A DNA stretch of 32,000 nt, taken from positions 215,660-247,659 of the forward strand of contig NC_001263.1 of NCBI RefSeq assembly GCF_000008565.1, read 5' to 3'. Positions 3,001 through 5,295 of this stretch are shown here, in pieces; position 1 is the stretch's first letter; every line of letters begins with the position of its first letter. Made by a program: the position numbers. The DNA is from Deinococcus radiodurans R1 = ATCC 13939 = DSM 20539. Lineage in GTDB: Bacteria > Deinococcota > Deinococci > Deinococcales > Deinococcaceae.

Positions 3001-5295
3001 GACTCTGCGGTATGAAGCTCCTGCTCCTCGCCGTGGTGGTTATCGTGGGCGTGCTGGTGGTCCTCAGCTTGCTGCGCAAAGGCACCGGCGCCGGTCCGGT
3101 GGGCAGCAGGCCGCCCGGCACCCGGCACCTGGACGAAGAAACCGCTGTCCGGCCCGACATTGACCCGCAGGCCCTCGCCGCCGCCCGCGCGCAGGTCGCG
3201 CCCACCGTGCCCGACGCCGTGCTCTCGGACGCACTGCTCGACGCCACCCCCAAGCAGGTCGCGCACCTGTTCTCCGCCGTGCCCGCCGATGTCATGGCGA
3301 ACGCTATGGGGCAGAACACGGGCCGGGGCGGCACGGTGCAGGTGCAGGGCCAGGCCACCGCGCAGGACATGGCCCAACTGAGGAACCTGAGCAGCGCCGT
3401 GGACGAGCTGGACATCTGGAACTTCGGCGACGACACCAGCCACAAAGCCTGAGCAGGACAGGGGAATAAGAGAAAGACCGGGGAGGGTGGCCCGGTCTTT
3501 CTTGGTTTGGAAATGGGATGGGGGGTGGCGTCCGGCGCACCTTGATGCCGTGCGGGTGCGAAGGCGGGCGTGTGAGCAGTCGCACGACTACTCATAACGA
3601 AAGATTTGGTCTGACTTCGCCAAATGTTATGTTATATACGTAAACTTTAAGATATAATCCCTAAGCATGGGTGCTACAACAGACTTCCGTCGAGCTATTG
3701 AAGAGAATAGGCTTCTATATCTCTCAACTTTAGAAGCCTACCGGGCATCAACACGAGAGAACAACGCTGAGGAAAACGATCTAGTAAAGATTATTACTCA
3801 ACCACGTAAAGATTTGGATATAGCATTTGTAAATCACAATTATTATATTACGAAGGAGAGGCATCTAAGATTAATGGGGAGCAATCAAATCTTTCTAAAA
3901 AAATCCATCGTTATAAATTTGATGTCAGCATTAGAGCAGTATCTAAAGGCTACTCTCAGGAAGGCATTCGCAAGTGCGCCAAAAATCTTCTCGAATGTAA
4001 AATCACGTCAAGAGCTGGAATTAGGATATATCATTCGTTTGGGGAGCTATTCGAATATCACCTCTGGATTTATAGAAAAGGAAGTCAGAAGAATAGGTGA
4101 GAGAAGTCTACATGAAAACGGGGACTTCTTCAAGAAAAACTTAGATATGGATTTTCAGAGACTTGGTGCAAGGTGGGATAGAATACTCCAAGCGTCAAAG
4201 TATCGGAATTCTATTATTCACCATAATTCCACCTTCGTAGATGAACTAGGCAGGGATCATAAAATAGATATAAGTCATTGGTTTATCATCCAACTAATGG
4301 ACGATCTATATGCATTGAGCGTGGAAGTTGGCAGAAGTCTAAGGGAGAAAATTGAAAAATATAATGAATCCGCTAAATCTATTGAAGAGTCTGCTATTGT
4401 GCTGATTGTAATTGAATCGAGCCTATATGATGACTTCGTCGAATTTCGGCCCAACTATACTTTCTATGATTCATCTAATAAATTAAGACAATTTTCGGAA
4501 CTAAACAAAGTTACGTACTCACGCGATCAGGGCAAAGTGTACGTCATGATAAGAGATAATTATAAAATCGTTTCCAGCTATATAGTAAATCTGAAAAAAA
4601 GGCACAAAGACTTAGATAGATCTGAGTTTCGCTATTACAAAATTTACAATGAAGATCCGAATAATTTAATACCAGACTGGCCAACTCTTGAAAAGGTTAG
4701 TATTGCTCTCGGCTATGGTCTGGAAGTAGAAGATATTATTACAGGGGTAAGCACAAGCTCACATGATACAAAGATTGTGGAAAGAGCAATACATATTATT
4801 GAAAATTCCTTACCTGAAAATGCTGTAAGGACTATAAGCACCTTGCTGGGGGACGATGAAATATTTGATAATCGCAAGGAAATTTTAGATATGCTGAGTG
4901 ATGAATACCTATTTGATAGGTCTGCGCTTTCCGCTACGCTCCAAATAGTTGCTGCTCAAAAAATTCATTTATTGTTGTCAAACTTGCACCTCAGTTACTA
5001 GACTTCCAGCGCCAACTTATCCACATCATTCAACAGCGGTGTGCCTGCCGGGTAATCCCCCGTAAAGCACGCCGAGCAGAGGCCAGGGCCGCCGATGGCC
5101 TTGCGCAGCCCCTGTTCGCTGATGAAGGCCAGGGTGTCGGCGCCGATGAGGTCACGGATTTCGTCCACGCTGTGCGTCGAGGCGACCAGTTCCTTGCGGG
5201 CGGCGGTGTCGATGCCGTAAAAGCACGGGTGAGTGATGGGCGGGCTGGACACGCGGAAGTGCACTTCGGTGGCGCCCGCGTCGCGCAGCAGGTTG

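What the first reader, a model, noticed from the sequence alone, without database searches (positions are those of the whole stretch)
3590..5001. Sharp low-GC island encoding a solitary HEPN-like (RNxxxH) protein with an unknown C-terminal half, interlocked with the purF stop codon
Seen in sequence:
- G+C drops from about two-thirds to about one-third between about 3590 and 5001. For example, 3841-3900 has 19 G+C of 60, while 5041-5100 has 43 of 60.
- No other ORF in the supplied track lies inside 3600-4997.
- The right edge is exact. The TAG at 4999-5001 interlocks with the purF stop on the other strand (4998-5000) in the tetranucleotide CTAG, so the convergent genes have no terminator space.
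- The left edge follows the hairpin terminator at 3471-3508.
- TATAAT (3653-3658) sits 8 nt before the ATG with no Shine-Dalgarno. The foreign gene therefore uses the same leaderless geometry as host genes.
- aa 179-186 are Y-R-N-S-I-I-H-H (nt 4201-4224), a canonical HEPN R-x4-H signature late in a ~230-aa helical region. That region reminds me of RiboL-PSP-type or MAE_28990-type HEPN families.
- aa ~240-444 (beta-rich, then helical) match nothing I recognise.
- There is no MNT or antitoxin partner, integrase or transposase nearby.

Established knowledge: HEPN domains are metal-independent RNases used by abortive-infection, toxin-antitoxin and CRISPR-ancillary effectors.

Inference: this is a horizontally acquired single-gene RNA-targeting defence or toxin module, and the unassigned C-terminal half is its sensor or regulator.
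Basis: partly seen in the sequence, partly recalled or inferred. Interest (0 to 1): 0.82.

Follow-up and report, generated by a model that had tools for sequence, protein, structure and literature searches.

The report
Imported solitary HEPN RNase gene island
A 1.4-kb AT-rich insert next to purF in a GC-rich Deinococcus genome carries one intact gene for a predicted HEPN-type RNA-cutting enzyme with a previously undescribed C-terminal half, sitting in a chromosomal slot that holds restriction or toxin-antitoxin genes in related species; it is most likely a rare single-gene anti-phage or toxin module, but no function has been tested.

Summary
GC falls from about 0.67 to about 0.36 across 3596-5001, which contains a single 444-codon ORF whose stop interlocks with the purF stop (CTAG).

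The N-terminal half is a HEPN_RiboL-PSP domain (Pfam 41.5 bits, cutoff 28.4). R180, H185 and E139 are invariant in the 15-sequence alignment, and the R-[N/H]-x3-H motif occurs in 28 of 29 relatives. The C-terminal half gives a confident model (pLDDT 92): a ferredoxin-like domain followed by two three-helix bundles. It matches no known family.

The family is very rare: 27 hits among 1.84 billion representatives, and none in phages, plasmids, IMG/VR, PHROGs or PADLOC.

The island occupies a variable slot between purF and a small DUF2196 gene, of which only a 21-codon remnant survives here (3529-3591). Other Deinococcus genomes hold a BsoBI restriction-modification system, BrnT/BrnA pairs or unknown AT-rich genes in the same slot.

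Homologues sit next to integrases, transposases, AbiTii, SRA-HNH and Gabija genes, with no conserved partner and no room for an AbiF-type RNA antitoxin.

An orthologue in a second Deinococcus shows purifying selection (pN 0.13) but saturated synonymous divergence (pS 0.74, against 0.35 for purF).

Verdict: a new architectural variant of a known kind (solitary HEPN Abi-like effector). Interest is moderate.

The parts
3471..3502 (+). Hairpin (12-bp perfect stem, 8-nt loop, then TGGTTTGG). Probable terminator of the upstream 146-aa gene (3012-3452). Belongs to the left flank, not to the island.
   Evidence: dG -26.3 kcal/mol, z = -3.7.
3529..3591 (-). Remnant of a DUF2196 (YwbE-like) gene. Only the equivalent of aa 32-52 survives (VVVRLLTRPPSHPHGIKVRRT). 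It marks the far edge of the variable slot.
   Evidence: tblastn with the intact D. phoenicis gene, window 3591..3529, E 4e-7. That gene is PF09962, E 4e-30. The same element borders different cargo in L010 and L011. The 3529-3595 segment is 85% identical to L001.
3596..3666 (+). AT-rich 5' non-coding part of the island, with a conserved block around 3625-3648 (TGTTATGTTATA.ACGTAAA). No repeats and no shared hairpin.
   Evidence: 64% identity to L001, lower than the gene's 74.5%. No tandem or direct repeats. No Rfam family reached its gathering score in the window; the permissive scan of 3400-3720 gave only three matches far below gathering score.
3653..3658 (+). TATAAT -10 box, 8 nt before the ATG. 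Leaderless-type promoter geometry with no Shine-Dalgarno sequence.
   Evidence: Sequence. Geometry conserved in L001 as TATACT + 8 nt + ATG. Literature: PMC4007540, PMC12340547.
3667..5001 (+). Complete 444-aa ORF: HEPN_RiboL-PSP protein with a novel C-terminal module.
   Evidence: Purifying selection against the L001 orthologue: pN 0.127, pS 0.735.
3838..4374 (+). HEPN core (aa 58-236). Helix 58-103; helix 128-145 carrying E137/E139; helix 168-184 ending in R180-N-S-I-I-H185; a beta-hairpin loop; helix 204-236.
   Evidence: Pfam match aa 72-214. DSSP of the AF2 model. Topology criteria from PMC3710099.
4204..4221 (+). RNSIIH, the Rx4H catalytic motif (R180, N181, H185).
   Evidence: R180 and H185 invariant in alignment A1. 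Motif present in 28 of 29 family sequences.
4390..4656 (+). Middle domain (aa ~242-330): ferredoxin-like alpha/beta sandwich. Its most conserved feature is an F-x-F...S-D motif around F266.
   Evidence: AF2 C-terminal model, pLDDT 91.8, pTM 0.86. Weak fold matches to PII-like, ACT, CutA and RRM proteins (TM about 0.55-0.61, E >= 0.045). F266 nearly invariant.
4678..4998 (+). Helical tail (aa 338-444): two three-helix units. In distant homologues the corresponding unit carries the W-x-x-G-I-H-K-x-I-A...IS-x-x-Q motif, which looks like a helix-turn-helix.
   Evidence: Model DSSP, alignment. Only sub-threshold HTH hits in Pfam (HTH_10, HTH_24, CodY, HTH_36, Mor).
4998..5001 (.). CTAG: interlocked stop codons of the HEPN gene (+) and purF (-). 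Exact right edge of the island.
   Evidence: Homology among nine Deinococcus sequences ends at the purF stop.
4998..6431 (-). purF (amidophosphoribosyltransferase), the conserved host flank of the variable slot.
   Evidence: Pfam domains of the orthologous genes. 85-90% aa identity to seven Deinococcus genomes.

Best explanation
The island is horizontally imported cargo in a variable chromosomal slot of Deinococcus, between the purF stop codon and a small DUF2196 gene. Its single gene encodes a solitary HEPN-superfamily RNase of the RiboL-PSP subfamily, the subfamily described as distantly related to AbiD/AbiF.

Proposed mechanism.
- The gene is transcribed from its own -10 box as a leaderless mRNA.
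- The protein uses the R180/N181/H185 plus E139 site for metal-independent RNA cleavage, probably as a dimer like other HEPN RNases.
- The enzyme is held inactive until a trigger is sensed by the fused C-terminal module (ferredoxin-like domain plus two HTH-like three-helix units).
- Once triggered, it cleaves cellular and/or phage RNA and stops growth, as in abortive infection.
- The fused module would stand in for the separate antitoxin (MNT protein or upstream ncRNA) that other HEPN toxins need.

Shown here: family membership by HMM, motif invariance, purifying selection, foreign composition, variable-slot anatomy, mobile-element and defence contexts of homologues, and absence of a conserved partner.

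Inferred, not shown: RNase activity, dimerisation, toxicity, the trigger, the role of the C-terminal half, and anti-phage function.
For: - Family: PF18735 above its gathering score. Seven of 15 aligned homologues also hit it. UniRef names P0022 a RiboL-PSP-HEPN protein.
- Active site: R180, H185 and E139 invariant. Motif present in 28 of 29 sequences. N follows R; the motif sits at the end of helix 168-184; the acidic residue is in helix 128-145. These match the published HEPN criteria (PMC3710099).
- Selection: pN 0.127 against pS 0.735 versus the L001 orthologue. A 444-codon ORF stays intact in AT-rich DNA.
- Foreign origin: GC 0.36 against 0.67; GC3 0.35 against 0.88. Absent from 185,579 species-representative genomes.
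- Variable slot: the same purF junction holds a BsoBI restriction-modification system (L013), BrnT/BrnA pairs (L010, L014), unknown AT-rich ORFs (L010, L011, L014), or nothing AT-rich within 3 kb (L009, L015). The slot is bounded by the purF stop and by DUF2196 or its remnant.
- Homologue contexts: prophage-like region, SRA-HNH neighbour, Tn3 transposon, integrase plus AbiTii. Among 127 neighbours of 28 further loci: Gabija (two loci), integrases, IS91-type transposases, Phd/YoeB and a TrwC/TrwB conjugation module.
- Solitary: no conserved neighbour family, at most 3 of 127. The two upstream ~120-aa genes are unrelated.
- Precedent: PF18735-type HEPN domains are listed in validated defence systems (PMC10952713). 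PD-T4-5 is a single gene, a distant AbiF/D relative, that gives abortive-infection defence (PMC9519451).
Against: - No experimental data exist for this subfamily.
- No PADLOC model matches, so it is not a recognised defence family.
- The family is absent from sequenced phages, plasmids, IMG/VR and PHROGs.
- Many neighbours of homologues are ordinary metabolic genes, and I made no formal enrichment test against a background.
- GC3 of 0.35 in a host with GC3 0.88 implies poor codon adaptation and possibly low expression.
- The L001 orthologue carries a +1 frameshift in an A-run, so the gene may be dispensable or costly.
- The function of the C-terminal module is guesswork. Its best fold matches have E >= 0.045.
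Confidence: 0.6

Rival explanations
1. It is the toxin of a two-component toxin-antitoxin module whose antitoxin I failed to see. Candidates are an AbiF-like type III RNA antitoxin, an antisense RNA (for example purF read-through transcripts, since the convergent genes share no terminator), or a tiny ORF. On this reading the module mainly stabilises the island rather than defending against phage.
For: - The nearest characterised relatives (the AbiD/F group) are HEPN protein plus upstream ncRNA type III systems (PMC13064643).
- BrnT/BrnA pairs occupy the same slot in L010 and L014.
- There is no terminator between the HEPN gene and purF.
- An antisense ORF (4275-4454) stays open in both orthologues.
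Against: - Only 71 nt separate the DUF2196 remnant from the ATG. That stretch is 64% identical to L001, below the gene's 74.5%, whereas AbiD/F upstream RNAs are more conserved than their genes.
- No tandem or direct repeats, no shared hairpin, and no Rfam match reaching a gathering score.
- The gap to the upstream gene is short in several homologues: 13 nt in L003, 36 nt in L008 and 52 nt in L091, though 382 nt in L007.
- Convergent neighbours are not a family trait: 12 of 27.
- The antisense ORF lengths are what chance gives at this composition.
Confidence: 0.17
2. It is a silent, decaying passenger: an imported gene that is barely expressed in Deinococcus and has no current function. It survives only because the insertion is recent or because the slot is repeatedly refilled.
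For: - Extreme codon mismatch: GC3 0.35 against 0.88.
- The orthologue in L001 is frameshifted in an A7 run.
- The window gene itself has two A7 runs.
- The family is extremely rare.
Against: - A 444-codon ORF is intact in stop-rich AT-rich sequence.
- pN 0.127 against a saturated pS of 0.735 between orthologues means long-term purifying selection.
- The catalytic residues are invariant.
- The -10/ATG geometry is conserved in both orthologues.
- The L001 frameshift is a single base in a homopolymer in a roughly 10x metagenome assembly and could be an assembly error.
Confidence: 0.13
3. It is a housekeeping or regulatory factor: an RNA-processing enzyme or a ligand-responsive DNA-binding regulator that uses the HTH-like tail and an ACT-like domain, with the HEPN domain serving as a binding or dimerisation module rather than a toxin.
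For: - The ferredoxin-like domain resembles ACT and PII regulatory domains.
- There are sub-threshold HTH hits in the tail.
- Some HEPN domains are non-catalytic (AbiA; PMC13064643).
- Some neighbours of homologues are metabolic genes.
Against: - The catalytic R, H and E residues are strictly conserved. Non-catalytic HEPNs usually lose them (PMC3710099).
- The distribution is patchy and very rare.
- The gene has foreign composition and sits in a slot that otherwise holds restriction-modification and toxin-antitoxin cargo.
- No metabolic neighbour is conserved.
Confidence: 0.05

Closest known systems
HEPN_RiboL-PSP family (Pfam PF18735; 'Ribo L-PSP-HEPN' of Anantharaman et al. 2013, PMC3710099)
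   Same: HMM match above the gathering score. Conserved Rx4H motif with a polar residue after the R, and an upstream acidic residue. Bacterial, and predicted to be an RNase involved in conflict or defence.
   Different: The family was named for fusions to endoRNase L-PSP and operons with ParB, and neither is present here. This protein instead carries a ferredoxin-like domain plus two three-helix units that no Pfam, NCBIfam, PADLOC or PHROG model describes. Only about 17 of the 27 representative hits appear to share that C-terminal module, judging by how far their matches extend.
AbiD/AbiF group (Abi_2), now known as type III toxin-antitoxin systems: a HEPN protein plus an upstream ncRNA
   Same: A single HEPN protein-coding gene, AT-rich relative to its host, associated with mobile elements and with toxic potential. 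RiboL-PSP HEPNs are described as distant relatives (PMC3710099).
   Different: No Abi_2 Pfam hit, even at E <= 10. No space for, or conservation of, an upstream ncRNA. The C-terminal module is not part of AbiD/F.
PD-T4-5 and the other PF18735-listed systems (PD-T4-2, PD-T7-3, ApeA) from E. coli functional screens
   Same: Validated anti-phage systems reported to contain this type of HEPN domain. PD-T4-5 is a single gene acting by abortive infection (PMC9519451, PMC10952713).
   Different: No PADLOC model matches the window protein at E <= 10. I assume, but did not confirm, that PADLOC-DB v2.0.0 contains models for these systems. The host phylum and domain architecture differ, and no phenotype is known.
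HEPN-MNT type II/VII toxin-antitoxin modules
   Same: A HEPN RNase toxin with the Rx4H motif.
   Different: No MNT nucleotidyltransferase partner in the window or next to any homologue. The protein is about three times larger and has fused domains.
Defence-island or integration hotspots flanked by core genes
   Same: Conserved core flanks (purF; DUF2196 or its remnant) with different AT-rich cargo in each genome, including a restriction-modification system and toxin-antitoxin pairs.
   Different: No integrase, tRNA or direct repeats at the site. Cargo turnover is presumably by homologous recombination between the flanks. I did not find this purF/DUF2196 slot described, though I did not search the literature specifically for it.

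Membership tests
HEPN superfamily | Rx4-6H motif, with a polar residue (N/D/H) right after the R | tested here: met
   R180-N-S-I-I-H185. R and H are invariant in 15 homologues. R[N/H]xxxH is present in 28 of 29 sequences. Criterion from PMC3710099.
HEPN superfamily | Conserved acidic residue upstream, in helix 2 (often Ex3[KR]) | tested here: met
   E139 is invariant. E137-x3-R141 is also present. Both lie in model helix 128-145.
HEPN superfamily | Four-helix up-down bundle, with the motif at the end of helix 3 leading into the loop to helix 4 | tested here: inconclusive
HEPN superfamily | Metal-independent RNase activity, usually with a composite site at a dimer interface | not testable with these tools
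   Needs biochemistry or a multimer model.
HEPN_RiboL-PSP (PF18735) | Score above the Pfam gathering threshold | tested here: met
   41.5 bits against 28.4, E 1.7e-10, aa 72-214 covering profile positions 25-185 of 191.
HEPN_RiboL-PSP (PF18735) | Namesake association: fusion to endoRNase L-PSP, or an operon with ParB (typical but not obligatory) | tested here: not met
   No L-PSP or ParB Pfam hit in the protein. No ParB among the 25 most frequent of the 83 Pfam families found in the 127 neighbours; the rest of the list was not shown. The fold matches of the middle domain are PII, ACT and CutA proteins, not YjgF/L-PSP.
AbiD/AbiF (Abi_2) type III toxin-antitoxin | Abi_2 domain match | tested here: not met
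   Not among the Pfam hits at E <= 10.
AbiD/AbiF (Abi_2) type III toxin-antitoxin | Upstream ncRNA antitoxin, more conserved than the gene | tested here: not met
   71-nt upstream stretch at 64% identity against 74.5% for the gene. No repeats and no shared hairpin. Power is limited, because only two orthologues are available.
Known defence systems in PADLOC-DB v2.0.0 (all 5027 models) | Match to a PADLOC model | tested here: not met
   0 of 5027 models at E <= 10.
HEPN-MNT toxin-antitoxin | Adjacent MNT nucleotidyltransferase gene | tested here: not met
   No such ORF in the island. None among the 25 most frequent Pfam families of the homologues' neighbours.
ACT / PII-like ligand-binding domains (middle domain) | beta-alpha-beta-beta-alpha-beta ferredoxin-like fold with sequence or profile similarity | tested here: inconclusive
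   Fold resemblance only: probability about 0.9, TM 0.55-0.61, rmsd about 3.4 A over about 88 residues, E >= 0.045. The first helix is replaced by an irregular segment. No Pfam hit.
Helix-turn-helix DNA/RNA-binding domains (tail) | Significant match to an HTH family | tested here: inconclusive
   Only sub-threshold hits in some homologues (HTH_10 0.0013, HTH_24 0.0024, and others). The model shows three-helix units.
Variable genomic hotspot (defence-island type) | Conserved flanks with different cargo between genomes, including known defence or toxin-antitoxin genes | tested here: met
   Nine Deinococcus sequences compared. The cargo is HEPN (2 genomes), a BsoBI restriction-modification system, BrnTA with unknown ORFs (2), three unknown ORFs, or none AT-rich within 3 kb (2); one contig (L012) ends too close to the junction to tell.

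The most novel reading that the evidence does not exclude
The protein would be a self-contained HEPN immune effector. A fused ferredoxin-like (ACT/PII/RRM-like) domain and tandem HTH-like units would sense a phage-derived nucleic acid or small molecule and gate the RNase. That would make it a protein-encoded replacement for the RNA antitoxin of AbiF-type systems.

Separately, the purF/DUF2196 slot would be a recombination-driven defence hotspot in naturally transformable Deinococcus. There, AT-rich cassettes would be exchanged between lineages and persist without drifting to host composition. This is suggested by saturated synonymous divergence with stable GC3 (0.35 and 0.38) between two orthologous islands whose flanks differ by dS of about 0.45.
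Probability: 0.25. Interest if true: 0.6.

Novelty: new variant of a known kind. Interest (0 to 1): 0.42.

Why it matters
Solitary HEPN RNases are a recurring but poorly understood class of bacterial immune and toxin proteins. How they are kept harmless without a separate antitoxin is only known for a few, such as the RNA antitoxin of AbiF.

This subfamily offers a compact, confidently modelled candidate for a fused sensor or gate: a ferredoxin-like domain plus HTH-like units. The mutations to test are obvious: R180A, H185A, E139A, and changes to the F266 motif.

The work also identifies a defined variable slot in Deinococcus, between the purF stop and DUF2196, that collects restriction-modification, toxin-antitoxin and unknown AT-rich genes. 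That slot could be mined for new defence genes in a phylum where phage defence is little studied.

If the gene turns out to be inactive, the finding is simply one more imported accessory gene.

Tried and rejected
1. Conserved partner gene. The ~120-aa genes upstream of two homologues are unrelated. In 127 neighbours of 28 loci, no Pfam family recurs more than three times.

2. Type III RNA antitoxin or structured RNA upstream. No repeats, no shared hairpin and low conservation. No Rfam family reached its gathering score in the window, and a permissive scan of 3400-3720 gave only matches far below gathering score.

3. The conserved 50-bp boundary element as an att site or sRNA. It turned out to be a fragment of a DUF2196 gene.

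4. Stop-to-stop overlap with a convergent gene as a family trait. I saw it in the window, L001, L003 and L007. In the larger sample only 12 of 27 downstream neighbours are convergent, so I rejected it.

5. Family-wide selection for AT-richness. Gene-sized AT islands in L003, L007 and L008 suggested it. Across 38 loci, however, gene GC tracks host GC (r = 0.79, median difference -0.035). The stark islands are better read as imports from a low-GC reservoir.

6. The middle domain as a divergent L-PSP domain. No Pfam hit and no YjgF-type fold match.

7. Phage or plasmid carriage. No tblastn hit in 50,697 phage or 72,556 plasmid records, no relative found by pattern scan in IMG/VR, no PHROG. There is one marginal BFVD structural match to an uncharacterised siphovirus protein (E 7.6e-4).

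8. Flanking direct repeats or a tRNA as integration signatures. None found.

9. Small conserved ORFs inside the island. They only mirror the sense-strand conservation.

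Full report
**1. The observation**

The composition drop is real and sharp. With 200-nt windows, GC is 0.615-0.75 at 3001-3600, 0.335-0.395 at 3601-5000, and 0.64-0.69 from 5001. No other 500-nt window in the 32 kb is below 0.48.

The only ORF of at least 60 aa inside the island is 3667..5001 (+, 444 aa). Its TAG (4999-5001) and the purF stop (4998-5000 on the minus strand) share CTAG. TATAAT is at 3653-3658, 8 nt before the ATG, with no Shine-Dalgarno sequence. YRNSIIHH is at aa 179-186, nt 4201-4224.

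Two corrections are needed. The hairpin is 3471-3502 (12-bp stem, z = -3.7). The island also does not begin directly after it (section 3).

A -10 box placed directly before a start codon is the documented leaderless pattern of Deinococcus (PMC4007540, PMC12340547). The orthologous island in L001 keeps the same geometry: TATACT, 8 nt, ATG.

**2. The protein**

*HEPN domain.* Pfam places aa 72-214 in HEPN_RiboL-PSP (PF18735; E 1.7e-10; 41.5 bits against a 28.4-bit cutoff). NCBIfam, PADLOC and PDB sequence searches found nothing significant.

*Rarity.* An exhaustive HMMER search of 1.84 billion representatives found only 27 proteins at E <= 1e-3. The word-indexed search of 5.8 billion clusters found the protein itself and one 71%-identical relative.

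*Conserved residues.* In an alignment of 15 diverse homologues, E139, R180 and H185 are the only invariant columns. R-[N/H]-x3-H is present in 28 of 29 sequences; the exception is a low-complexity false positive.

*Model against published criteria.* The AlphaFold model has a mean pLDDT of 80.5. It places the motif at the end of helix 168-184, followed by a loop with a beta-hairpin and then helix 204-236. E139 lies in helix 128-145. These match the criteria of Anantharaman et al. 2013 (PMC3710099): the motif at the end of helix 3, a polar residue after the R, and an acidic residue in helix 2.

*C-terminal half.* Modelled alone with its homologues, aa 238-444 gives pLDDT 91.8 and pTM 0.86. It has two parts:
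- A ferredoxin-like alpha/beta domain (about aa 242-330). Its best, non-significant matches are PII-like, ACT, CutA and RRM proteins (probability about 0.9, TM 0.55-0.61, E >= 0.045).
- Two three-helix units (about aa 338-380 and 384-439). In distant homologues the corresponding unit carries a W-x-x-G-I-H-K-x-I-A...IS-x-x-Q motif. It gives only sub-threshold HTH hits.

No Pfam, PHROG or PADLOC model describes this half. Judging by how far their matches extend, about 17 of the 27 representative hits appear to carry it; the shorter ones are HEPN-only proteins.

**3. The locus**

*A second copy.* A second Deinococcus contig (L001, an ENA metagenome assembly) has the same gene at the same place, with the same stop overlap and also at low GC. 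Its apparent split into two ORFs comes from one extra A in an A-run.

*The junction in relatives.* I fetched the purF region from seven Deinococcus genomes. Homology ends exactly at the purF stop in all of them. Downstream, each genome has different content:

| Locus | Organism | Content downstream of purF |
|---|---|---|
| L010 | D. phoenicis | BrnT/BrnA pair plus a 261-aa AT-rich unknown |
| L011 | D. caeni | three AT-rich unknown ORFs |
| L013 | MAG | complete BsoBI-type restriction-modification system (PF09194, 6.6e-79; PADLOC MTase_II and REase_II) |
| L014 | MAG | a disrupted BrnT, a BrnA-like gene and a 508-aa protein (phrog_37753) |
| L009 | D. marmoris | no AT-rich cargo within 3 kb |
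| L015 | D. altitudinis | no AT-rich cargo within 3 kb |
| L012 | MAG | contig ends about 90 nt after the purF stop, not informative |

*The far edge.* A 50-60-bp element at window 3529-3591 recurs at the far edge of the cargo in L001, L010 and L011. It is part of a DUF2196 (YwbE-like) gene:
- Intact in D. phoenicis (PF09962, 4e-30).
- Reduced to aa 30-64 in D. caeni.
- Reduced to aa 32-65 in L001.
- Reduced to aa 32-52 in the window.

So the island occupies a variable slot between the purF stop and DUF2196. There is no tRNA or direct repeat at the site. The genes to the left of the slot in the window (a 286-aa ORF at 1860-2720 and the 146-aa ORF) are not syntenic with purF in the other species.

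**4. Evolution of the gene**

With the L001 frameshift repaired in silico, the two orthologues are 75% identical in protein. The table gives the Nei-Gojobori values.

| Gene | pN | pS | dS | GC3 (window / L001) |
|---|---|---|---|---|
| HEPN gene | 0.127 | 0.735 (saturated) | about 2.9 | 0.35 / 0.38 |
| purF | 0.056 | 0.351 | 0.47 | 0.88 / 0.86 |
| purL | 0.062 | 0.329 | 0.43 | not computed |

The protein is therefore under purifying selection. Its synonymous sites are far more diverged than the flanks, yet have not drifted toward host composition. The two simplest readings are exchange of diverged alleles at the slot by homologous recombination, or very old residence with AT-richness maintained. 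I cannot separate them.

**5. Homologue contexts**

From exact-protein look-ups:
- P0007 lies in a prophage-like region with a serine recombinase, cI/Cro-type HTH genes and an HNH gene.
- P0006 sits next to an SRA-HNH gene.
- P0019 sits next to a Tn3 transposase and an integrase.
- P0022 (Bacillus hwajinpoensis) lies between an integrase, SinI and an HTH gene on one side and AbiTii on the other.
- P0012 lies about 2 kb from a XerC-type integrase.

A metagenome scan added 67 loci of the broader clade. Among 127 neighbour ORFs from 28 of them, no Pfam family occurs more than three times, so there is no conserved partner. Annotated neighbours include two complete Gabija systems, integrases, IS91-type transposases, Phd/YoeB and a TrwC/TrwB module, alongside ordinary metabolic genes. 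I did not run a formal enrichment test.

**6. Ideas tested and dropped**

- *Gene-sized AT islands.* These appear around homologues in GC-rich contigs (L003, L007, L008) and suggested a selected family trait. Across 38 loci, gene GC tracks host GC (r = 0.79, median -0.035). The family's reservoir is low-to-mid-GC organisms, and the stark islands are imports.
- *Four-nucleotide stop overlap.* Seen with a convergent gene in four contexts, but not general (12 of 27).
- *AbiF-type upstream RNA antitoxin* (PMC13064643). Unlikely here. Only 71 nt are available, they are 64% identical between orthologues (below the gene's 74.5%), and they contain no repeats or shared hairpin.
- *Phage or plasmid carriage.* No relative in phage or plasmid records, IMG/VR or PHROGs.

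**7. Comparison with what is known**

*What it works like.* A solitary HEPN abortive-infection or toxin RNase. PF18735-type HEPN domains are listed in validated systems (PD-T4-2, PD-T4-5, PD-T7-3, ApeA; PMC10952713). PD-T4-5 is a single gene, a distant AbiF/D relative, that gives abortive-infection defence (PMC9519451).

*Membership.*
- HEPN superfamily and PF18735: sequence criteria met, fold search inconclusive.
- Abi_2 (AbiD/F): not met.
- Any PADLOC family: not met.
- HEPN-MNT: not met.
- The namesake L-PSP fusion and ParB operon: absent.
- The C-terminal module: undescribed.

**8. Verdict**

This is a new architectural variant of a known kind: a solitary HEPN effector from a rare subfamily, imported into a variable slot that I did not find described, though I did not search the literature for it. 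RNase activity, toxicity, the trigger and the anti-phage role are all inferred, not shown.

Interest is moderate. HEPN genes in defence islands are common. The well-modelled unknown C-terminal module, the slot anatomy and the lack of drift toward host composition are what make this case worth a follow-up.

Noticed in passing
window 6361-6894 (+): A DUF559 / restriction-endonuclease-like gene (PF04480, E 4e-45) sits between purF and purL at lower GC (0.54-0.60). Its ORF overlaps the purF 5' end by about 70 nt. tblastn finds it in only three of the eight other Deinococcus sequences compared (L009, L011, L013).
   Followed up: partly
window ~10400-10900 (ORF 10430-10900, minus strand): A second low-GC insert (0.39-0.48) lies between purS and purC. 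It encodes a 156-aa protein with two hydrophobic stretches that look like transmembrane helices, and it has no Pfam or PHROG match. In L001, purS and purC are only 55 nt apart, so this is another insertion into the pur cluster.
   Followed up: partly
L010 7446-9075; L011 7403-9327; L013 7843-10157; L014 7517-9694: Other cargo in the same slot: BrnT/BrnA pairs (L010, L014); a BsoBI-type restriction-modification system (L013); a 261-aa AT-rich unknown (L010); three AT-rich unknown ORFs, one matching phrog_10743 (L011); and a 508-aa protein matching phrog_37753 at 3.8e-79 (L014). The unknowns are candidates for undescribed defence genes.
   Followed up: partly
window 3529-3595 and L001 1180-1246: The DUF2196 remnant is 85% identical between the window and L001, although it is a truncated pseudogene in both. 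That is higher than the 74.5% of the HEPN gene and the 64% of the adjacent non-coding stretch. The truncation point (aa 30-32) is nearly the same in D. caeni, which has different cargo. Possible reasons are recent truncation or use as a recombination anchor. Unexplained.
   Followed up: partly
L001 ~1782-1790 (equivalent to window ~4134-4140): The orthologous gene in L001 has one extra A in a homopolymer (A7), which splits it into two ORFs. This could be a real inactivation, slippage-type variation, or an assembly error at about 10x coverage. The window gene has A7 runs of its own at 3897 and 4594.
   Followed up: partly
window 3667-5001 versus L001 1318-2653: Synonymous sites are saturated between the orthologues (pS 0.735), while flanking purF and purL show dS of about 0.45. 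GC3 stays at 0.35 and 0.38 in hosts with GC3 of about 0.87. The island has not drifted toward host composition despite deep divergence.
   Followed up: partly
L003 10001-11401; L007 2165-3532; L008 688-2004: Distant homologues (26-29% identity in the search) in unrelated GC-rich contigs are also exact one-gene AT-rich islands (0.33-0.44 against 0.58-0.70). In L003 and L007 the stop overlaps a convergent host gene by 4 nt, as in the window.
   Followed up: yes
window 4844-4870 and 4892-4918: A short internal repeat in the helical tail, 16 codons apart: LLGDDEIFD and MLSDEYLFD.
   Followed up: no
window 4275-4454 (minus strand) and L001 1942-2112: An antisense ORF of 59 and 56 codons stays open in both orthologues (68% identity). 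It is probably a by-product of sense-strand conservation, and its length is within chance expectation for this composition.
   Followed up: partly
L093-L158 (JGI metagenome loci): In two of the 28 loci censused, GajA and GajB (Gabija) are among the three nearest neighbour ORFs of the HEPN homologue (PADLOC GajA 2e-243, GajB 4e-167). The output did not name which loci.
   Followed up: no
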